DNA from: Alphaproteobacteria bacterium
GTDB lineage: Bacteria > Pseudomonadota > Alphaproteobacteria > 16-39-46 > JABJFC01
Direction of reading: 5' to 3'
NCBI GenBank assembly: GCA_018662925.1
Contig: JABJFC010000086.1
Location: 50-64,049 of the forward strand
DNA length: 64,000 nt
Made by a program: the position numbers and the translations under genes. The notes below the pieces were generated by a model. The model was given only the letters and a program-made list of their open reading frames with translations, did no database searches and was not told where the DNA came from. Of this stretch, positions 18,595 to 37,176 are shown in pieces. Position 1 is the first letter of the stretch. Each line of letters starts with the position of its first letter.

Positions 18595-21435
18595 ATGATT
18601 TCATCCATTTCTATTCGCGGTGCACGAGAGCACAACTTAAAAGATCTCAATGTGGAAATCCCCAAGAACCAACTTGTGGTCATTACGGGCCTCAGTGGAT
18701 CCGGAAAATCCTCCCTAGCATTTGATACGATCTATGCCGAAGGTCAGCGCCGCTATGTGGAAAGCCTGTCTGCCTATGCCCGTCAATTCTTGGAACTCAT
18801 GCAAAAACCCGATATAGATTCCATTGAGGGTCTATCACCGGCCATTGCCATCGAACAAAAGACTACCTCCAAAAATCCTCGATCTACAGTCGGAACCATT
18901 ACGGAAATTTATGATTACCTGCGGCTTTTGTTCGCACGAATAGGTGTCCCCTATTCACCTGCCACAGGACTCCCCATCGAAAGCCAATCTGTTTCTCAAA
19001 TGGTGGATCGTCTTATGGCACTCCCAGAAGGAACAAAGCTTTATCTCTTGGCGCCCATCGTGCGCGGCCGCAAAGGAGAATATCGGAAAGAACTGCTAGA
19101 GCTCCAGCGCAAAGGATTCCAGCGTGTGAAAATAGACGGAGAACTATACGAAATCGATGAAGCACCTGCGCTAAATAAAAAAGTAAAACACGATATCGAT
19201 GTGGTGGTCGATCGACTCGCGGTGAAAGAGACGGTGAAACAGCGCCTCGCAGATACGCTTGAAACAGCCCTATCCATCGCAGATGGCTTGGCCGCGGCAG
19301 AGTTAGCCGATACGGGAGAACGCATTACTTTTTCCGAAAAGTTTGCCTGTCCCGTCTCGGGATTCACCCTGGAAGAAATAGAACCTCGCCTCTTTTCCTT
19401 TAATAACCCTTTCGGAGCCTGTCCAACTTGTGATGGATTGGGCGTTAAAATGGAATTTGACGAGGACCTGGTTGTTCCCAACAAGTCCCTCTCTCTTTTG
19501 AAAGGCGCCATTGCGCCCTGGGCAAATTCCTCAAGCGAATACTATATCCAAACCCTGGAAGGCATTGCACGGCATTACAAAGTCAAGCTTAACGCCCCCT
19601 TCGAGATATTACCTCAAAAAGTTCAAGAGACCATTCTCCATGGTTCTGGGCGAGAAAAAATCGATATCACATATCGGGATGCAAAACGCACCTACACAGT
19701 GTCCAAAGCATTTGAAGGTGTCATTCCCAATATGACACGCCGTTTCCTAGAAACGGAAAGTAGCTGGGTCCGCGAAGAAATGGGTAAATACCAAATGGTC
19801 CATACCTGTGATAGCTGTGAAGCTTTTCGGTTAAAGCCAGAAGCGCTGTGCGTTAAAATTGATGAACTGCACATTGCTGAAGTCACAAACAAGTCCATCG
19901 AAGAGGCCGCTGTCTGGTTTGAAAATCTGCCCTCAAAACTGGACACGCAAAATCAAGAAATTGGCCGGCGGATTCTTAAGGAAATTCAAGAACGCTTGGG
20001 ATTTTTGGTCAGCGTTGGTTTGGGATACCTCACCCTCTCCCGAGGTTCAGGCACGCTATCTGGAGGAGAAAGCCAGCGCATTCGACTGGCCTCTCAAATC
20101 GGATCAGGACTCACCGGTGTTCTTTACGTTCTAGATGAACCCTCTATCGGACTCCATCAACGAGATAACAATCGCCTTTTGGAGACCCTTGTTCGTTTGC
20201 GAGATCTAGGCAACTCCGTCATCGTTGTTGAGCACGATGAAGATGCCATCCGAACTGCCGATCATGTCATTGATATGGGCCCCAGAGCTGGGATTCACGG
20301 TGGAGAAATAATTGCGCAAGGAACGCCAGCAGATATTCTAGCCTCTGAAAAAAGCCTCACAGGACAATACCTGAGTGGGAAGCGAGAAATCCCCATACCT
20401 CAAAGGCGGCGCAAAGGAAAAAGTGATCTGAAAATTATAGGCGCGCAAGCCAACAATCTTCAAAACATAGATGCGACCATTCCTCTCGGCACCTTTACCT
20501 GTGTGACAGGAGTCTCAGGTGGCGGAAAATCATCTCTCATTGTTGAAACGCTTTATAAGGGCTTATCCCGCCTCCTTAATAATTCAAGAATCATTCCAGG
20601 CACCCACAAGAAAATTAGCGGTGCTTATGAATTGGACAAGATTGTTGATATCAATCAATCTCCTATTGGACGGACCCCGCGGTCTAATCCCGCCACCTAT
20701 ACAGGCTGTTTCACGCCCATCCGCGAATGGTTTGCGGGCCTTCCCGAAGCCAAAGCCAGAGGCTATAAGCCAGGACGCTTTTCCTTTAACGTCAAAGGGG
20801 GGCGCTGTGAATCCTGTCAAGGAGATGGGCTTATAAAGATTGAAATGCATTTTCTGCCCGACGTTTATGTCACCTGCGATCAATGTAAGGGTCGTCGTTA
20901 TAACAGAGAAACTTTGGAAATCACATACAAAGGCAAATCCATCGCAGATGTTCTTGATATGACCGTCGATGAGGCAGCAGATTTTTTCGAAGCCCATCCC
21001 AGTCTCAAAGATAAGCTAGCTGTTTTAAACAAGGTTGGGCTTTCGTATATCCATTTGGGCCAATCTGCCACTACCCTTTCAGGAGGTGAAGCACAGCGGG
21101 TTAAATTAGCCAAGGAACTCTCCCGACGCGCCACAGGAAAGACTTTATATATTCTGGATGAGCCAACGACAGGCCTCCACTTTGAAGACACTCGGAAACT
21201 CTTAGAAGTTCTCCAGGCCCTAGTAGACCAGGGCAACTCTGTCCTCGTTATAGAACATAACCTAGACGTGATTAAAACAGCCGACTGGATCATCGATTTG
21301 GGCCCCGAGGGTGGTTCAGGTGGCGGACATATTGTGGCCGCAGGCACGCCTGAAGATATCGTTCATGTTAAAGAAAGCTACACGGGGCATTATCTCAAAC
21401 CACATTTGAAAGGCTACGACGAGAAGGCCGCTTAA
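18595..21435 (+). CDS. uvrA: excinuclease ABC subunit A
   Basis: 946 aa; two ABC modules ([20 protein letters not shown]), zinc fingers, LSGGE signatures. Confidence 0.95.
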
Positions 21436-21617
21436 AACACTACGTCTTCGTTCATATTTTTATGTGATTGTACTATTCAGTTTTCTCTTGAGAGTTACAT
21501 AACCTGGATCCCAAATCACTTTAAGGATCAATGTCTTAAGATACCGATTGATCCAAGGTTCTTCTGTTCAGAAATGGTGACGTTCACTTGCAGAAACAAC
21601 AGTTAACTATAGCAGTC

Positions 21618-24479
21618 CTAATACCCAATTACCGTAACAGGTACACCAATCGCAGTACTTGAGAAATTGCCATTGCCGTGATCGAAGTAGGGCTGGAGTT
21701 CAGAGGGTGCATCGTAAAATTCGTCCTTTCCCCTCTTTTCGTAGCCCGTAAAACCATTGTCGTTTGCAGAAGGCATAATACCTTTACCCATGGCAAGGGT
21801 TTTTAATACATATTGCATCCTATTCGCATGAAAAGCATCACTTTCAGCTTCTAATTTCTTCTGCATATATTCAGACAGATCTACCACCACAGAATCCCCC
21901 TTAGGTTGAACTGGCACTTGAGAAGCGGACGGAAAAAATACACTTGGCGGACGCAAATCTGAAACAGCCCCATCAACGTTTTCTTCTTCAGTGTCTGAAC
22001 CATCGGAGGCGTCATGAAAAACGAGATCCTTATCCTGCTCTTCTTCTTCATCTGCATTTTTCCCTTCAAGTTGATCAAGTCCAACTTCTTCCTCCTCTTC
22101 AAGGAGTGCATATTGAACACTAGTGCTGTCCAAGTCCTCAACTCTACCAACGTTCAATCCACCGCCCGAAAACCCTTCGCCACCTCCAGAATAGTCCTCC
22201 ATCTCCCTGTCATCTGCTGCGCGTTTCTCCTTCGTTTTTTTCTCCTTCTTAACTAGAACTCTGATTTCTTTAATGAACTTATGCACCTCTTCTACCTCTG
22301 TCATAGTGCCCCTTTTGACAGTGAATTGGAAAATATCTTCCACAAACTGCATGAGATCATGTTTATGCAATCCAACGAAATCAGGATACTTGAAAAAAGT
22401 TTTCCTGACCTGACGGATGAACCAACTTGACCAAGTCTCTATGGGGTTTACAGAATACTCTTCCTCAACGCCAAATCCACATTTCTTTAGCACAGGCTTT
22501 ATACCCTGTAGATTACTAAAACTGCGCCAGCCCCAATGAGACAGTAATTCTTCATCAGGTGATGATTGTAAATCATCCTCATTGATGATACGGCCACTAA
22601 CTTCCCAAACTGTTCTTGAAAGCTTCACGAAACCTTGCCTGATACCCGTTAATAAACGGCGAGTCCTTAGGGCGATTATTGAGCCAGATCTCTTTAGTTG
22701 AGCAGCTGCAAATGGTGTTAAGTTGAGAGACAGTCCCGCTGTCGTAATTAAAACGTAACCATTATAAAGAATGCTCAGGGGATCTCGTGTAATTAAAGAA
22801 TAAACACTGGGCACGCCCATAGCTGTCAGGTACACAACGGCAAAGGGAACTGTTTGCAGAGTTCCCCACGCCAAACTATCCAACCAATGTCCTACCCCCA
22901 AAATCCGGCTCACACGTCCCGTTGAAGGATTGTCTCGGGTTCCCTCTCTAATATAATGCATCCAGGCATACAAGCTATTAAACCAGCCAAAGGCTGCGAC
23001 AGGTGCACTTAACAAACCCAATGTCGTTAGACGAAAAGGATCCTCTATAATCGTACTAAACGAGTAGCCAAATGGATCATACAAAAGTCTGTGAAAGACG
23101 TACATTGACAGAACAGTTAGACCAGGCAAACCAACCGTAGCCGCCAACAGTGAAAATAAGCGTTTATTTATTTCAGGATCCTTTACCTGTCGAAAGATTC
23201 TTTGCCATCTGTTGAGTGTCTCTTTTCGAGATTCTTCTGTATCATCATGGAGTAGACTTTGCTCCAAAGAGCTTTCTTCTACTAAAAGTTCTCCTTCAAG
23301 AACTGCTATAAAATTTTTGATATCAATAAAATTTTCCACACCTGCATCTTTGCTACTACCTGAAGTAGATCGTGTAATAAGATTCCAAATTTGATGAAAC
23401 CTCTGGGGATCCGTCTTTATAGTAAGCCATAGTCTCAGAATTTCCTGAGGGTCCTCCATATCACGGATAAGACGCTTATAATCTCGCTTCTTCTGCTGTA
23501 ACGCAAGCATAGTATTTGCAAAGGATCCTTCTTTCTCTTCTCTCAATATCGTCTTTCTGAAAAACTCCCTGCTCTTTGCAAAAGTCCAGCGTAAATCACT
23601 TTGCAGAGCACTTACGCGCTCTGTAAGAGTTGCAAATTCAAATATAAATCCACCGAACATCTCTGTTGCTACAAGCCACAAGGGAGCATTTTCAGAAATA
23701 CTCAGATAAAACAAAGGAAGCGCCAGTGAAAGGACTGCAGCAGGAACGTCTAGTAATCTCCTACCAATAGTATGAATATAATCATTCAGTCGCTCGGCAC
23801 GAAACATATGGTTTGGAGCACGGGACAACATGCTTTCAAAAAATCTAGCTGCATCAACAGAGGTTACAGAATTTCGCAGATAAAAAGTAAGAGAAATGGC
23901 ATCCGTAAGAACATCCGTAGGATTTTTTGAAACGGTATCCTCTTGATCTAAATTAAGGATTTCAAGCCATCTATATAAAAAATATCCAAATAAAGCACCT
24001 CTTACAACATGCCCACCAGCAGAAACAATCACTCCAATCGCTCCCCAAGGCTCCCTCAAATGGGGCAGTATTCTGCGCGGAAAGTAGTGAAAAATCTGAT
24101 CTCGATCATCTGGTCGAACTTGCTGCATATAGTTCATAATACGGTCAAATTCTTCTCTAAGCGTCAAGGTATCCAGAATCTTTAGTCTTGAATATTTGTC
24201 ATCACCCAAACAGTTTACAGTGGGTTGCTGAAGCACCATGTACTCTGCTAGTGAATTATCCATATTCCTTATGACGGATGGAATACGATTCCTACTGTAC
24301 TCTTCCGAAGTCTCTCCATCTTTGCCTTTTGCAAAAGAACAATCGCAATTTAGTGAAGTACAAAACACAAAAACTAAAAGTAGGAAGGCATATTTTATAG
24401 CACACATCAAACAGAGGCTTTCGTAGTAATACTGAAATATAAAAATCTTTAGAGATGATAGTAAAAAACACCAATACAT
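21618..24479 (-). CDS. large hypothetical polytopic membrane protein with Glu/Asp-rich disordered C-terminal region
   Basis: 953-aa ORF; N-terminal signal-like segment (a more likely start is MCAIKYAFLLLVFVF...); at least 6 hydrophobic helices; C-terminal low-complexity SGGGEGFSGGG and EEEEE(V)...EEEEQD tracts. Confidence 0.5.
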   Translation of the reverse strand: MYWCFLLSSLKIFIFQYYYESLCLMCAIKYAFLLLVFVFCTSLNCDCSFAKGKDGETSEEYSRNRIPSVIRNMDNSLAEYMVLQQPTVNCLGDDKYSRLKILDTLTLREEFDRIMNYMQQVRPDDRDQIFHYFPRRILPHLREPWGAIGVIVSAGGHVVRGALFGYFLYRWLEILNLDQEDTVSKNPTDVLTDAISLTFYLRNSVTSVDAARFFESMLSRAPNHMFRAERLNDYIHTIGRRLLDVPAAVLSLALPLFYLSISENAPLWLVATEMFGGFIFEFATLTERVSALQSDLRWTFAKSREFFRKTILREEKEGSFANTMLALQQKKRDYKRLIRDMEDPQEILRLWLTIKTDPQRFHQIWNLITRSTSGSSKDAGVENFIDIKNFIAVLEGELLVEESSLEQSLLHDDTEESRKETLNRWQRIFRQVKDPEINKRLFSLLAATVGLPGLTVLSMYVFHRLLYDPFGYSFSTIIEDPFRLTTLGLLSAPVAAFGWFNSLYAWMHYIREGTRDNPSTGRVSRILGVGHWLDSLAWGTLQTVPFAVVYLTAMGVPSVYSLITRDPLSILYNGYVLITTAGLSLNLTPFAAAQLKRSGSIIALRTRRLLTGIRQGFVKLSRTVWEVSGRIINEDDLQSSPDEELLSHWGWRSFSNLQGIKPVLKKCGFGVEEEYSVNPIETWSSWFIRQVRKTFFKYPDFVGLHKHDLMQFVEDIFQFTVKRGTMTEVEEVHKFIKEIRVLVKKEKKTKEKRAADDREMEDYSGGGEGFSGGGLNVGRVEDLDSTSVQYALLEEEEEVGLDQLEGKNADEEEEQDKDLVFHDASDGSDTEEENVDGAVSDLRPPSVFFPSASQVPVQPKGDSVVVDLSEYMQKKLEAESDAFHANRMQYVLKTLAMGKGIMPSANDNGFTGYEKRGKDEFYDAPSELQPYFDHGNGNFSSTAIGVPVTVIGY

Positions 24480-32964: not shown

Positions 32965-34131
32965 ATGGAAAGAAAACAATATATTGAACGCATATCAAAA
33001 TATTTTAAATCCCATCAAATAGTAGGGCTTTTGGGACCGAGACAGTGTGGGAAAACGACCCTTGCACGTAAATATGCAAATATCCAGAATTCAGCAAATA
33101 GAGAAAATTACTTCGATTTGGAGGATGCTCGAGATTACGAAAGGTTGCAAAAACCTCAGCTGGTGTTAGAAAAATTAGAAGGATTAGTCATCATTGATGA
33201 AATTCAATTGATGCCAAGTTTATTTGCAACTCTGCGTGTTCTTGTTGATCGTGAAGATTCTAAGGCTCGTTTTCTAATTTTAGGAAGCGCTTCACGAGAG
33301 CTTATAAATAAGTCAGCCGAGACCTTAGCCGGACGAATTGCCTACATTGAATTACCGCCCTTTTCCTACCTGGAAACACATAATTTAGATAAGTTATGGC
33401 TCCGCGGTGGCTTCCCTAGATCCTATTTGGCTCCAAATATAGAGGAAAGCAATGATTGGAGAGAATTTTATATAACAACTTTTCTGGAACAAGATATTCC
33501 TAATCTAGGAATCCAGATCCCTGCTGTATCATTGAGACGCTTTTGGACAATGTTGGCCCATTATCATGGAAATATATTTAATGCCTCCGAATTTGGACGT
33601 TCCTTCGGAAGTGCAGATACCACTATTCGCAAATATCTCGACATCCTTACGGGCACCTTTATGGTTCGGCAGCTGCAGCCCTGGCAAGAAAACATTAAAA
33701 AACGACAAGTGAAGGCGCCGAAAATTTATTTTCGTGATAGCGGATTATTACATACGTTGTTAAATATTTTTAGTGAGTATGACCTTCAAACTAATCCAAA
33801 GCTTGGAGCCTCATGGGAAGGATTTGCCTTAGAAGAAGTTGTTCGGGTTCGCCAAGTAAAACCTCACCACTGTTACTTTTGGGCCACTCATACGGGTGCG
33901 GAAATCGACTTGCTGATTTTTGAGGGAAATAACAAGAAAGGATTTGAGTTCAAATACACAGACGCTCCTAAAATGACCAAGTCCATGAGGATTACTAGTG
34001 CAGACTTAGCCCTTGATGAAATGACGGTTATTTATCCTGGAGCCGTGGATTATCAGCTGGACGACAAAATATATGTCAAAGGGCTTAAGCAGTATCTAGA
34101 AGAAAATTCCACGCTAAATTTGCACGCTTAG
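32965..34131 (+). CDS. AAA-family ATPase (AAA_14 plus DUF4143-type)
   Basis: 388 aa; Walker A GPRQCGKT, Walker B VIIDEIQ; domain layout typical of AAA_14/DUF4143 ATPases. Confidence 0.7.
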   Translation: MERKQYIERISKYFKSHQIVGLLGPRQCGKTTLARKYANIQNSANRENYFDLEDARDYERLQKPQLVLEKLEGLVIIDEIQLMPSLFATLRVLVDREDSKARFLILGSASRELINKSAETLAGRIAYIELPPFSYLETHNLDKLWLRGGFPRSYLAPNIEESNDWREFYITTFLEQDIPNLGIQIPAVSLRRFWTMLAHYHGNIFNASEFGRSFGSADTTIRKYLDILTGTFMVRQLQPWQENIKKRQVKAPKIYFRDSGLLHTLLNIFSEYDLQTNPKLGASWEGFALEEVVRVRQVKPHHCYFWATHTGAEIDLLIFEGNNKKGFEFKYTDAPKMTKSMRITSADLALDEMTVIYPGAVDYQLDDKIYVKGLKQYLEENSTLNLHA

Positions 34132-34305: not shown

Positions 34306-34887
34306 ATGTTTGCAATTATTCGAACGGGCGGAAAACAGTACAAAGTTCAAGCCAATGATAAGATTACCGTTGAAAAATTATCAGCGACACAAGGTGCTAC
34401 TGTTTCCTTAGATCACGTGCTAATGATCGGTGATGGCTCAAAGACCACTGTCGGCACCCCACGTATTGAAGGTGCAAGAGTCCAGGCCGTTGTTGAAGAA
34501 CAGGGCCGCGCAAAAAAGATTATTGTCTTTAAAAAGAAGCGCCGCCATAACTATCGCCGGAAAAAAGGGCACCGCCAGGATCAAACAGTGCTAAGGATTG
34601 TTGAAGTATTGGCTCCCGGAGCAACTGCGAAAAAGACGACAGCCGCTCCAAAGCCCAAGACTGAATCAAAGGAATCCAGCGTGGCAAAAACAGCAGCGAC
34701 GAAAGCCACTGCAACAAAGGCACCCGCAAAAGCACCAGCCAAAACGGCAACGAGTGCACCTACTAAGGCCACGACGAAGGCGCCAGCTAAAAAAGCAGCC
34801 CCCACTAAGAAGTCTGAGACCACAACCGCTAAGAAGCCCGCAGCCAAAAAGCCTGCTGCTAAAGCTTCTCCGGCGAAGAAAAAGTAG
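34306..34887 (+). CDS. rplU: 50S ribosomal protein bL21 with roughly 90-aa Ala/Lys/Thr/Pro-rich C-terminal extension
   Basis: N-terminal 103 aa is canonical L21 ([14 protein letters not shown]...); the C-terminus is AKP-rich and low-complexity, histone H1-like. Confidence 0.9.
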
Positions 34888-35257: not shown

Positions 35258-36274
<1,017 letters not shown>

Positions 36275-36294: not shown

Positions 36295-36600
36295 CAGACA
36301 ATTGAGTCCACGCGTCAGATCCCCTGAAGCATTAATCTTGGCCACACTGCAACGTATGAGGCTGAGTTCTGGCTTCCAGCTGATGCCTGGATCCCGCGCT
36401 CATAAGAAATCCTAAGGCGCGCCTCCGGCTTGCCAAATATTTCTAATGGCCGGGAAGACGATAAAAACGCCGTCTTCCCGGAGCCTAGGAACTCTAGACG
36501 AACCGGCGTCTTAAGCCGGTGAGTCCTAGAGTGAGTTGGCATCGCGGGATCCATAAAATCAGAGGGAAAAGAACGGATTTCAGAGAACTGAAAAACGCCT
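36295..36600. ncRNA. GC-rich structured intergenic element (candidate ncRNA or palindromic repeat element); identity unresolved
   Basis: Perfect 10-bp long-range inverted repeat ggatcccgcg/cgcgggatcc (36378-36387, 36541-36550) enclosing nested hairpins (ccgggaagacg/cgtcttcccgg; ccggc/gccgg); roughly 55-60% GC in a roughly 40% GC background. Confidence 0.3.
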
Positions 36601-36631
36601 TGTATCAACCATTAAATCTGATCTCTGATAG

Positions 36632-36663
36632 AAAAACCCCCAAGATCACTCTCGGGGGTCTTT
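36632..36663. terminator. bidirectional Rho-independent terminator (serves pal on the minus strand and the obgE/ncRNA side on the plus strand)
   Basis: aaaaa-cccccaaga-tcac-tctcggggg-tcttt: GC hairpin flanked by an A-tract and a T-tract. Confidence 0.6.
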
Positions 36664-36693
36664 CATGTCCATCATCATGTGATAACGGAGAGA

Positions 36694-37176
36694 TTATTGA
36701 TCCAACGTTATGATAGTCGTACGATTCTGTGCATAAGCAGCCTCAGTTGATCCCTCAACTATGGGGCGCTCCTTACCATAACTAATTGTTTCTATGCGTC
36801 TAGGATCGATACCAAGCGCTACCAAGTAATTCTTGTGAGAATCAGCTCGACGCTGTCCTAATGCTAGGTTGTATTCCTGTGTGCCGCGTTCGTCACAATG
36901 ACCCGAGATACTAAGATCCACATCATCATATGCCTTAAGCCATTCAGCCTGACGCTCAATAGTTTCCTGAGATTCTGCATTCAAATTATACATATCAAAT
37001 GCATAAAATGCGCGATCTCCAGCCTCAATAGCAAAGTCCGCCTGACTCCCTGGAAGAACTTCTTCCTCAAAAGCCATATAAGGAGCATCCCATTCGCCCC
37101 TATCTTCATCATCTGATCCACAAGCAGCTATAGCTACTGCTAGTAATGAAACTGAAGCGATTTTCTTTAAATCCAT
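36694..37176 (-). CDS. pal: peptidoglycan-associated lipoprotein Pal (OmpA family)
   Basis: 160 aa; lipobox IAACGS; OmpA-like C-domain; downstream of tolB. Confidence 0.85.
   Translation of the reverse strand: MDLKKIASVSLLAVAIAACGSDDEDRGEWDAPYMAFEEEVLPGSQADFAIEAGDRAFYAFDMYNLNAESQETIERQAEWLKAYDDVDLSISGHCDERGTQEYNLALGQRRADSHKNYLVALGIDPRRIETISYGKERPIVEGSTEAAYAQNRTTIITLDQ

What the first reader, a model, noticed from the sequence alone, without database searches (positions are those of the whole stretch)
36295..36663. GC-rich, highly structured intergenic element between obgE and pal: candidate novel ncRNA or palindromic selfish element
An approximately 300-bp stretch at roughly 55-60% GC is embedded in roughly 40% GC DNA. 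It contains a perfect 10-bp long-range inverted repeat (ggatcccgcg...cgcgggatcc) separated by about 155 nt. Inside are extended hairpins (ggccgggaagacg-AUAAAAA-cgccgtcttcccggagcc; accggc-gucuuaa-gccggu). It is followed by a bidirectional intrinsic terminator. It did not match tmRNA, RNase P, SRP or 6S hallmarks by eye. The two ORFs called here (36315-36608 minus, 36519-36713 plus) look spurious.
Basis: seen in the sequence. Interest (0 to 1): 0.5.

Follow-up and report, generated by a model that had tools for sequence, protein, structure and literature searches.

The report
Structured interspersed repeat, not an RNA gene
The GC-rich, tightly folded stretch between obg and pal is one copy of a multi-copy, mosaic hairpin repeat in this uncultured marine alphaproteobacterium; it looks like an enlarged version of the repeats recently shown to be targets of small GIY-YIG single-strand DNA nucleases (Ssn), rather than a new RNA gene.

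Summary
Window 36388-36553 is an 11-bp perfect inverted repeat enclosing three hairpins, predicted to fold as a four-way junction (z = -8.7). It is 55% GC in a 41.5% GC window and matches no Rfam family, tRNA or tmRNA.

It is not a single-copy RNA gene. Translating the spurious minus-strand ORF and searching protein databases found homologous DNA in other intergenic regions. These loci come from the same MAG species, up to three or four copies per 8 kb, and from related metagenome contigs. Copies are mosaic:
- a left module L and a right module R;
- a spacer between them of 10-189 nt;
- a tail;
- solo half-copies and tandem sub-repeats.

Four stem positions show compensatory changes.

On one contig a 97-aa GIY-YIG gene sits between an R end and an L start. 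It is 51% identical to the gonococcal homologue of SsnA. Ssn nucleases cut ssDNA beside NTS/SRM hairpin repeats that flank their genes (PMC11893778). Each module reads as an NTS-like unit, CGTC-TTCCCGG...CGCGGGAT-C-CA, whose loop is replaced by a structured insert. L plus R is an inverted doublet.

The published SRM pattern does not match, so I call this a new variant of a known kind. No transcription or nuclease data exist.

The parts
36364..36387 (+). Leader, GAGTTCTGGCTTCCAGCTGATGCC. It pairs with the tail to extend the closing helix and is homologous to the leaders of other copies (consensus about GAGCTCTGTTCCCTGATT...).
   Evidence: Fold; leader comparison.
36388..36398 (+). Outer 5' arm, TGGATCCCGCG. 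On the minus strand it reads CGCGGGATCCA-G, which is the 3' half of an SRM/NTS-like unit.
   Evidence: inverted repeat I1; the SRM 3'-half pattern matches 36387-36400 on the minus strand.
36399..36447 (+). P1 hairpin, the structured insert in the 'loop' of the left unit. The stem is AGAAAT/ATTTCT here and AGGAAT/ATTCCT in other copies.
   Evidence: the pair at columns 26-62 changes on both sides.
36448..36460 (+). Inner arm of the left unit, GGCCGGGAAGACG (P2 5' arm). Its reverse complement is CGTCTTCCCGGCC, which is NTS-like (CGTC-TTCCCG).
   Evidence: invariant in all copies; compared with the NTS consensus quoted.
36461..36470 (+). Spacer between the two units (P2 loop), ATAAAAACGC. It is 10 nt here and 35-189 nt in other full copies. 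It is where inserts and tandem sub-repeats occur.
   Evidence: insert lengths 10, 35, 74, 90, 188, 189.
36471..36481 (+). Inner arm of the right unit, CGTCTTCCCGG (P2 3' arm). It is the NTS-like 5' half and keeps the GTC just upstream of the stem.
   Evidence: invariant; for the NTS features.
36482..36542 (+). P3 hairpin, the structured insert of the right unit. Its tip CCGGCGTCTTAAGCCGG is invariant. One stem pair appears as A-T, C-G, T-G and G-C in four full copies.
   Evidence: pair at columns 118-144; the pair at columns 103-160 is G-C or A-U.
36543..36553 (+). Outer 3' arm, CGCGGGATCCA. It is the SRM/NTS-like 3' half and keeps the C that follows the palindrome.
   Evidence: (3'-half pattern matches 36541-36554 on the plus strand).
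36554..36632 (+). Tail module. It pairs with the leader over 36558-36574 and contains a small hairpin, TTTCAG-AGAA-CTGAAA, at 36578-36593. It is conserved at a lower level in several copies.
36632..36664 (-). Intrinsic terminator hairpin, CCCCC...GGGGG at 36637-36658. It has a T5 tract on the minus strand and ends pal. On the plus strand there is only a weak U-tract. It is not part of the repeat family.
   Evidence: Tails of other copies lack it.
21503..21582 (-). Decayed, AT-enriched R-type relic of the same family, between convergent genes 18595-21435 (+) and 21618-24479 (-). It keeps CGTCAC at the 5' end and GGATCCAGG at the 3' end.
   Evidence: nhmmer E = 0.013 with a single sequence and 3.1e-5 with the profile; sequence; ORFs.

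Best explanation
The element is one copy of a lineage-specific, multi-copy, composite interspersed repeat. In the window the full unit spans about 36364-36632.

Each half (L and R) is an enlarged relative of the NTS/SRM hairpin repeats that are the ssDNA targets of Ssn-family GIY-YIG nucleases. Each half has the form CGTC-TTCCCGG, then a 50-60-nt structured insert, then CGCGGGAT-C-CA. L and R sit in inverted orientation. Their outer arms pair with each other (the closing stem) and so do their inner arms (P2). A single strand of DNA or RNA is therefore predicted to fold into a four-way junction.

Shown here:
- the structure and its stability;
- multi-copy and mosaic distribution in the same genome;
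- compensatory changes in the stems;
- an Ssn-family gene bracketed by R and L modules on a related contig.

Inferred:
- A cognate Ssn nuclease recognises the units as ssDNA. The repeat family owes its spread or maintenance to that interaction, as proposed for NTS-ssnA-NTS and for REP/RAYT.
- In this locus the copy is carried passively in the obg read-through transcript. There its very stable fold could act as a 3' barrier or processing site.
For: 1. Structure. z = -8.7 for the core, with perfect 11-bp closing and P2 stems.

2. Multi-copy in the same genome.
- The spurious-ORF search found P0122-P0125, which lead to loci L110-L122.
- nhmmer finds full and half copies at L118 133-323, 3980-4229 and 5107-5251, at L112/L117 3911-4318, and at L110 199-277, 637-888 and 981-1066.
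- Protein accession numbers place Obg, P0123 and P0125 in the same MAGs.

3. More diverged copies occur in L123-L125.

4. The family is absent from 80 other alphaproteobacterial obg loci and from the phage and plasmid collections.

5. Mosaic build.
- The spacer between L and R ranges from 10 to 189 nt.
- L110 carries 20-nt tandem arrays of the CGTCTTCC half-motif.
- Several contigs end inside copies (L110, L120).

6. Covariation among six full copies. 96.3% of cells are paired, against 32-45% for slid controls. Four pairs change on both sides, in 7 cells; no shuffle in 500 reaches 7 cells.

7. Ssn link.
- The 97-aa single-domain GIY-YIG ORF at L110 294-587 lies between an R end plus tail and an L start.
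- It is 51% identical (E = 2e-35) to the 94-aa N. gonorrhoeae homologue.
- Homologues of it in L093 and L097, and in Neisseria, Azospirillum, Sinorhizobium and Aeromonas, are flanked on both sides by TGGAT..CCGC hairpin repeats. L093, L097, S. meliloti and L110 share the same order: CGCGGGATCCA-type end, then ORF, then TGGATCC-type start. The frameshifted L096 homologue has one such element about 146 nt from its 3' end.

8. Literature.
- PMC11893778 shows that Ssn proteins cut ssDNA beside such repeats. The GTC upstream of the palindrome and the C after it matter most, and a hairpin split over two oligonucleotides still works.
- Both window modules keep the GTC and the C (3'-half pattern).
Against: - The published SRM search pattern gives no full match in the window or in any family locus. 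Positive controls give 9, 4, 1 and 2 matches. The loop is 50-60 nt instead of 0-5 nt, and the within-unit stem is only about 5 bp.
- The Ssn link rests on one locus, L110 (L111 is a duplicate). L110 is not proven to come from the window's genome. Tetranucleotide similarity of 0.86 is compatible with the same organism but does not discriminate.
- No GIY-YIG gene lies in the 64-kb window.
- No empty site or target-site duplication was found, so mobility is not shown.
- The covariation is among paralogous copies, few in number, so relatedness inflates the statistics.
- Strand evidence is weak. There are 18 G-T cells against 4 A-C cells, but 11 of the 18 come from two near-invariant pairs.
- There are no transcription data.
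Confidence: 0.6

Rival explanations
1. A classical MITE: a non-autonomous DNA transposon with the 11-bp terminal inverted repeats TGGATCCCGCG/CGCGGGATCCA (TG...CA ends). It would be mobilised in trans by a DDE transposase of an IS elsewhere in the genome. The GIY-YIG neighbour would be coincidental.
For: - Perfect 11-bp inverted repeat and strong secondary structure.
- Size of 166-350 bp.
- Multi-copy, intergenic distribution.
- Weak reverse-complement similarity between L and R, as expected for an old long inverted repeat.
Against: - Conserved leader and tail sequences extend beyond the inverted repeat, so the repeat is not the element's end.
- No target-site duplication is visible.
- The element is GC-rich, not AT-rich.
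- Solo L or R halves and tandem half-motif arrays are common.
- No IS with these ends occurs in the sequence held.
- Two different repeat families that share the 11-mer both sit next to homologous GIY-YIG genes. That is hard to call coincidence.
Confidence: 0.15
2. A family of functional structured small RNAs: a four-way-junction RNA with a tail, expressed from each copy or from some copies, and acting in trans.
For: - Very stable fold, with compensatory changes in P1, P3 and the GCC/GGC helix.
- The plus-strand fold is more stable than the reverse strand in 5 of 6 copies.
- Variable-length insertion confined to one hairpin tip is typical of RNAs.
- A terminator follows the window copy and the L123 copy.
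Against: - No Rfam match even at E <= 10.
- No promoter-like site upstream on the plus strand and no conserved upstream sequence beyond the leader.
- Truncated half-copies, internal duplications and tandem arrays.
- One full copy, L118b, lies antisense to both neighbouring genes.
- Both terminators also serve convergent genes, and their better T-tract is on the opposite strand.
- Hairpin conservation is equally expected for ssDNA recognition.
Confidence: 0.1
3. A host-exapted cis element. Whatever its origin, this copy would be kept between the convergent obg and pal genes as an mRNA 3'-end stabiliser, an RNase III site or a transcriptional insulator, as reported for REP/BIME, ERIC, Correia and BOX repeats. 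This does not exclude the best explanation.
For: - It lies 90 nt after the obg stop with no terminator in between, so obg transcripts should run into it.
- Both the pristine copy and the relic in the window sit between convergent genes.
- Effects of this kind are documented for other repeats (PMC3049150).
Against: - Other copies sit in tandem, divergent and convergent intergenic regions alike.
- No orthologous obg-pal junction exists in relatives to test conservation.
- Same-species contigs are near-identical over the whole 7 kb, so they carry no signal of selection.
Confidence: 0.15

Closest known systems
NTS / Ssn-related motifs (SRM) and their SsnA GIY-YIG ssDNA nucleases (Chenal et al. 2025, PMC11893778)
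   Same: - Multi-copy intergenic hairpin repeats.
- Arm sequences nearly the same as NTS: CGTC(A)TTCCCG(C)G ... (C)GCGGGA(A)TCCAG.
- The critical GTC upstream and the C downstream are retained.
- A ~97-aa single-domain GIY-YIG gene is bracketed by the repeats. It is 51% identical to the gonococcal homologue.
- Units occur as inverted doublets.
   Different: - The 0-5-nt loop of each unit is replaced by a conserved 50-60-nt structured insert (P1, P3).
- The within-unit stem is reduced to about 5 bp, while the between-unit arms pair perfectly over 11 bp each, giving a four-way junction.
- The published SRM pattern does not match.
- Extra leader, tail and X modules are present.
- Binding or cleavage by Ssn is untested.
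Neisseria intergenic mosaic elements (NIME) and dRS3 repeats
   Same: Mosaic repeat units bounded by short inverted repeats of the ATTCCC..GGGAAT type. They are intergenic and clustered.
   Different: Different interior modules and a different host (marine alphaproteobacterium). The dRS3 20-mer itself is absent.
BOX elements of Streptococcus pneumoniae (PMC3049150)
   Same: - Composite A-B(n)-C build.
- The end modules pair with each other, and a variable number of internal sub-repeats folds independently.
- Size range of roughly 70-640 bp.
- Spurious ORFs are called across them.
- They probably affect co-transcribed genes.
   Different: - No sequence similarity.
- BOX elements have terminal inverted repeats plus target-site duplications, and an IS transposase is their proposed mobiliser.
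- Here no target-site duplication is seen and the candidate partner is a GIY-YIG nuclease.
REPIN / RAYT and BIME systems
   Same: An inverted doublet of hairpin repeats recognised as ssDNA. There is a single-copy nuclease/transposase gene flanked by its own repeats, and the repeats cluster as mosaics.
   Different: The partner enzyme class is a GIY-YIG nuclease, not an HUH/Y1 transposase. The units are much longer and branched.

Membership tests
Ssn-related motif (SRM/NTS) repeats | Short hairpin matching HGTCWYN(0-2)YYVSBRHN(0-5)WNVSBRGN(0-2)RNCYNB | tested here: not met
   no full match in the window or in L110-L125. Positive controls matched: N. gonorrhoeae 9, Azospirillum 4, S. meliloti 1, Aeromonas 2. 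The loop here is 50-60 nt.
Ssn-related motif (SRM/NTS) repeats | Oriented non-palindromic flanks: GTC just upstream of the stem and C just after it (most critical for cleavage and binding) | tested here: met
   Sequence shows CGTC-TTCCCGG at 36471-36481 and, on the minus strand, across 36450-36460. CGCGGGAT-C is present at both outer arms. The 3'-half pattern matches 36541-36554 (+) and 36387-36400 (-). The 5'-half pattern has no match in the element; I counted one mismatch by hand for R.
Ssn-related motif (SRM/NTS) repeats | Many copies per genome, almost always intergenic | tested here: met
   At least 5 full or partial copies in about 80 kb of this species (window, L117, L118), all intergenic. 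The genome-wide count is unknown.
Ssn-related motif (SRM/NTS) repeats | A cd10448-type single-domain GIY-YIG (Ssn) gene in the genome, flanked by the repeats | tested here: inconclusive
   Met on contig L110/L111: a 97-aa protein with only a Pfam GIY-YIG domain, 51% identical to the gonococcal 94-aa homologue, with an R end upstream and an L start 21 nt downstream. The origin of the contig in the window's genome is not proven. There is none in the window. The CDD assignment is not testable here.
Ssn-related motif (SRM/NTS) repeats | Bound and cut as ssDNA, on one strand only, by the cognate Ssn | not testable with these tools
   Needs a biochemical assay.
MITE | Terminal inverted repeats | tested here: met
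   11-bp perfect inverted repeat. However, conserved sequence continues outside it.
MITE | Target-site duplication | tested here: inconclusive
   No direct repeat is seen flanking the inverted repeat in 8 copies. No empty site is available for comparison.
MITE | AT-rich relative to the genome | tested here: not met
   Core 55.4% GC against 41.5% for the window.
Composite interspersed repeats (BOX/BIME/NIME type) | Built from several sub-sequences in variable arrangement and number | tested here: met
   L, R, T, leader and X modules; 20-nt and ~50-nt sub-repeats; solo halves.
Known structured RNAs (6S, tmRNA, RNase P, SRP, riboswitches, other Rfam families) | Covariance-model match | tested here: not met
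   No gathering-score hit in the region. At E <= 10 the only hits are chance matches, mostly at or beside the terminator, and none covers the 36388-36553 core. ARAGORN found nothing there.

The most novel reading that the evidence does not exclude
The family could be a self-propagating population of branched ssDNA hairpin elements, a REPIN analogue, copied or maintained by a GIY-YIG Ssn nuclease. In it the nuclease's recognition hairpin has been split open to carry structured cargo, and it works only when two inverted units pair into a four-way junction. That would be the first natural example of the 'split NTS' recognition so far shown only with synthetic oligonucleotides. It would also be the first case linking Ssn nucleases to the spread of composite repeats.
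Probability: 0.25. Interest if true: 0.7.

Novelty: new variant of a known kind. Interest (0 to 1): 0.45.

Why it matters
Ssn nucleases and their hairpin targets were described only in 2025, and their role outside Neisseria is open. This family suggests that the target motif can tolerate, or has evolved around, a 50-60-nt structured insertion in its loop. It also suggests that two units can be read as a doublet folding into a four-way junction.

If the cognate Ssn acts on it, three things follow:
- the known target space of these enzymes widens, which is relevant to their use as ssDNA tools;
- pattern-based SRM searches would be shown to miss whole families;
- there would be a tractable case for testing whether Ssn genes drive repeat expansion.

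For genome annotation, it explains a set of spurious 'hypothetical proteins' (P0121-P0125, P0127-P0130) and contig breaks in these MAGs.

Tried and rejected
- Rfam at gathering score and at E <= 10, and ARAGORN: nothing in the element.
- Synteny route: Obg relatives in GTDB genomes and in the protein database are at most 72% identical, and none has pal next to obg or carries the element. P0001 looked close but is a chimeric or duplicated Obg assembly.
- Population variation: six same-species contigs differ by at most one base, or one 6-nt indel, over 7 kb, so they are uninformative.
- Metagenome scan with the 11-mer arms: it returned chance hits in GC-rich DNA, long perfect palindromes, and a different repeat family. 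At first I set this aside as unrelated. It became useful only when its GIY-YIG neighbours turned out to be homologous to the L110 ORF.
- Viral contigs (two patterns), phage records and plasmid records: no copy of the element.
- Translating the plus-strand ORF as a second proxy query: no candidates.
- P0126, from the representative search, is an unrelated low-complexity repeat protein. P0128 is not on record.
- Retron, riboswitch, integron attC, and IS200/TnpB or IscB guide RNA readings were considered and dropped. There is no reverse transcriptase, no downstream co-oriented gene, no attC motifs, no adjacent nuclease gene in the window, and no Rfam hit.
- Literature searches by sequence string and by MAG accession found nothing.
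- Tetranucleotide comparison to assign L110 to the window's organism was not discriminating.

Full report
**1. The observation**

The region lies between convergent genes. obg is at 35270-36274 on the plus strand. A 160-aa OmpA-family gene next to tolB, taken as pal, is at 36694-37176 on the minus strand.

The inverted repeat is 11 bp and perfect. TGGATCCCGCG is at 36388-36398 and CGCGGGATCCA is at 36543-36553, with 144 nt between the arms. It encloses three hairpins.

The 174-nt core folds at -87.8 kcal/mol, against -52.7 +/- 4.1 for shuffles (z = -8.7). The reverse strand gives z = -7.0. The predicted shape is a four-way junction. A leader/tail helix, 36366-36384 with 36558-36574, extends it.

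The window is 41.5%. So 55-60% GC holds only for the core.

The hairpin at 36637-36658 has a T5 tract on the minus strand and only UCUUUC on the plus strand. It is mainly the pal terminator.

Rfam finds four tRNAs elsewhere in the window and nothing here. Even at E <= 10 only chance hits appear, mostly at or beside the terminator, and none covers the core. ARAGORN finds nothing.

**2. Finding relatives**

The organism is an isolated lineage.
- Contigs with the identical Obg are nearly identical over 7 kb.
- The next Obg relatives are at most 72% identical.
- None of 80 genome loci has pal beside obg or any similarity to the element.

A collection scan with the two 11-mer arms returned 22 loci, none of them this element.

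The productive step was to use the spurious minus-strand ORF (36315-36608) as a protein query. Only one frame is open across the conserved right half. Gene callers had occasionally called it elsewhere (P0122-P0125; P0127-P0130).

Fetching those contigs gave homologous DNA in unrelated intergenic contexts:
- downstream of accC, and twice more within the same 8 kb (L118);
- near a patatin gene (L112/L117);
- around a GIY-YIG ORF (L110);
- on small contigs (L123-L125).

Protein accession numbers show that Obg, P0123 and P0125 sit in the same MAGs. For example, MBT5540924 and MBT5540940 are 16 apart, and MBT4879462 and MBT4880281 are 819 apart. The copies in L112-L122 are therefore paralogues within the window's own species.

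A profile search also picks up a decayed R-type relic in the window at 21503-21582 on the minus strand (E = 3e-5). It finds nothing in the other 100 loci held.

**3. Anatomy of the family**

Copies are built from modules:
- L: the outer arm TGGATCCCGCG, the P1 hairpin, and the inner arm GGCCGGGAAGACG.
- A spacer of 10 nt in the window, the shortest. It is 35, 74, 90, 188 and 189 nt in other full copies.
- R: the inner arm CGTCTTCCCGG, the P3 hairpin with the invariant tip CCGGCGTCTTAAGCCGG, and the outer arm CGCGGGATCCA.
- A less conserved tail that pairs with a leader.

Other variation is common:
- Solo R or R+tail copies (L118a, L118c). One L copy (L110a) is followed by tandem sub-repeats at a contig end, so it may not be a true solo.
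- Duplicated arms.
- An alternative X module, TGGATCCCGCGCTCATCCGTCT...
- 20-nt tandem arrays of the CGTCTTCC half-motif: 10 copies at the end of L110 and 5 inside a spacer.
- ~50-nt and ~199-nt arrays in L124 and L125.

L is weakly similar to the reverse complement of R.

Across six full copies, with spacers trimmed, mean column identity is 89%. For the named structure:
- 96.3% of cells are paired, against 32-45% when partners are slid.
- Four pairs change on both sides, in 7 cells. No shuffle in 500 reaches 7 cells.
- One P3 pair appears as A-U, C-G, U-G and G-C.

In the two truncated R copies that same position is mispaired (by eye).

G-T cells outnumber A-C cells 18 to 4, but 11 of the 18 come from two near-invariant pairs. 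The plus-strand fold is the more stable in 5 of 6 copies. The structure therefore seems to be read on the window's plus strand, weakly supported.

**4. The GIY-YIG link**

On L110 a 97-aa ORF with only a GIY-YIG domain lies between two modules. Upstream is an R end (CGCGGGATCCA) plus tail. An L start (TGGATCCCGCG) begins 21 nt after its stop.

tblastn of this protein against everything held hit L093, L096 and L097 at 51-56% identity. Those loci had been retrieved only because a different palindromic family, TGGATCCCGCGGNCAAGCCGCGGGAYGAC, shares the terminal 11-mer. In L093 and L097 the ORF is again bracketed in the same order: CGCGGGATCCA, then 14-35 nt, then the ORF, then 1-2 nt, then TGGATCCCGCG. 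The frameshifted L096 homologue has one such element about 146 nt past its 3' end.

Homologues in annotated genomes (46-58% identity) behave alike. Hairpin repeats of the general form CTGGATyCCcGC-loop-GCgGGrATGACG flank the ORF on both sides in:
- N. gonorrhoeae;
- Azospirillum lipoferum, where the gene is inserted between sufB and sufC;
- S. meliloti, between gltA and lpxB;
- Aeromonas caviae.

**5. What is known**

This association is published. Chenal et al. 2025 (PMC11893778) define NTS as CGTCATTCCCGCGMAVGCGGGAATCYRG, a subset of Neisseria dRS3, and the broader class as Ssn-related motifs (SRM). Their findings:
- 71% of ssnA homologues have an SRM nearby, and 42% have one on both sides.
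- SsnA, a 94-aa cd10448 GIY-YIG protein, binds the hairpin only as ssDNA, on one strand. It cuts a few nucleotides upstream.
- The three bases upstream of the palindrome and the C after it are the most critical.
- Cleavage still occurs when the two halves of the NTS are on separate oligonucleotides.
- They note the resemblance of NTS-ssnA-NTS to an IS and to REP/RAYT.

The L110 protein is 51% identical (E = 2e-35) to the 94-aa gonococcal homologue.

**6. Reading the window element in that light**

R is CGTC-TTCCCGG, then P3, then CGCGGGAT-C-CA. Against the NTS halves CGTCATTCCCGCG and GCGGGAATCYRG, it differs by single-base deletions. It keeps the GTC and the C. L is the same on the other strand, with P1 as the insert.

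Each unit is therefore an NTS-like hairpin whose 4-5-nt loop is replaced by a conserved 50-60-nt structured insert.

L plus R is an inverted doublet, the same arrangement as in the S. meliloti and metagenome composites. What I called the P2 loop is the spacer between units, which explains why it varies. Because the within-unit stem is only about 5 bp (TCCCG/CGGGA) and the between-unit arms are perfect 11-mers, a single strand prefers the four-way junction.

The published SRM pattern gives no full match here. Positive controls match 9, 4, 1 and 2 times. Its 3' half matches both outer arms in the right orientation. I therefore do not file the element as an SRM by the published definition. I file it as a long-loop, doublet variant of that kind.

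**7. Function**

Shown: the fold, the multi-copy mosaic distribution, the compensatory changes, and the Ssn gene bracketed by the modules on one contig.

Inferred: recognition of the units as ssDNA by a cognate Ssn, with spread or maintenance of the family through that interaction.

At this locus there is no terminator between the obg stop and the element. obg transcripts should therefore include it and end at the pal terminator. A cis effect on 3'-end stability or processing is plausible by analogy with BIME, ERIC, Correia and BOX repeats (PMC3049150), but it is untested.

Rivals are a DDE-mobilised MITE, an sRNA family, and an exapted cis element. They are weighed in their own sections.

**8. 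Verdict**

The 'selfish palindromic element' reading is right in kind, and the 'novel ncRNA gene' reading is unlikely.

The closest known system is NTS/SRM-Ssn. The element differs from it by its enlarged structured loops and its doublet four-way fold, and it fails the published motif. That makes it a new variant of a known kind.

Main uncertainties:
- whether the window's genome carries the ssn gene;
- the copy number per genome;
- any biochemical or transcript evidence.

Noticed in passing
L093, L095-L099, L101, L102, L104 (metagenome loci): A second, distinct composite repeat family in low-GC metagenome contigs: CTGGATCCCGCGGNCAAGCCGCGGGAYGAC, a 90-120-nt interior, and the inverse of the first part. 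It shares its terminal 11-mer with the window family. Some interiors are tandem arrays of GTCATCCCGCG units. In L093, L096 and L097 it adjoins Ssn-type GIY-YIG ORFs, on both sides in L093 and L097. The published SRM pattern matches L095 but not L093 or L097.
   Followed up: partly
L127 1198-1491 (Azospirillum lipoferum 4B plasmid AZO_p3): An Ssn-type GIY-YIG gene with SRM doublets on both sides is inserted between sufB and sufC of an otherwise contiguous suf operon. This looks like a mobile-element insertion.
   Followed up: no
L128 about 930-1200 (S. meliloti pSymB, upstream of the GIY-YIG ORF): The sequence upstream of the S. meliloti ssn homologue begins with a duplicate of the gene's own 3' end (…EKLNPDWRDLYFQLW*), followed by the same composite repeat. 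This suggests tandem duplication of the ssn-repeat unit.
   Followed up: no
L110 1-209 and 898-998: Tandem arrays with a 20-nt period (40-nt super-period, 95% matches) of units starting TCGTCTTCC, the NTS-like 5' half-motif. One lies at a contig end and one inside the spacer of a full element.
   Followed up: partly
L125 395-1027: Three ~199-nt tandem units, each holding only the 3' part of the R module, next to a 47-nt tandem repeat present three times. Locus GC is 50%, so it is probably a different organism.
   Followed up: no
window 34306-34887: Ribosomal protein L21 (rplU) is 193 aa, with a ~90-aa Ala/Lys/Thr/Pro-rich C-terminal extension. That stretch has strong AT skew (up to 0.74). One same-species contig (L003) has a 6-nt in-frame deletion at 34743-34748.
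   Followed up: partly
window 32965-34131: An AAA_14/DUF4143 ATPase gene (388 aa) sits between a czcB-like efflux gene and rplU-rpmA-obg. This family is often found in variable regions.
   Followed up: no
L087 (ENA ERZ22665968 k127_5599348): A 463-aa 'Obg' (P0001) carries an internal duplication of the GTPase domain. It is probably an assembly chimera of two strains. It topped the homologue list for that reason only.
   Followed up: yes
L090, L105, L108, L089 (metagenome loci): Near-perfect 150-170-nt palindromes, with fold energies down to -176 kcal/mol, bounded by the same 11-mer. They may be assembly fold-back artefacts or long-hairpin repeats.
   Followed up: no
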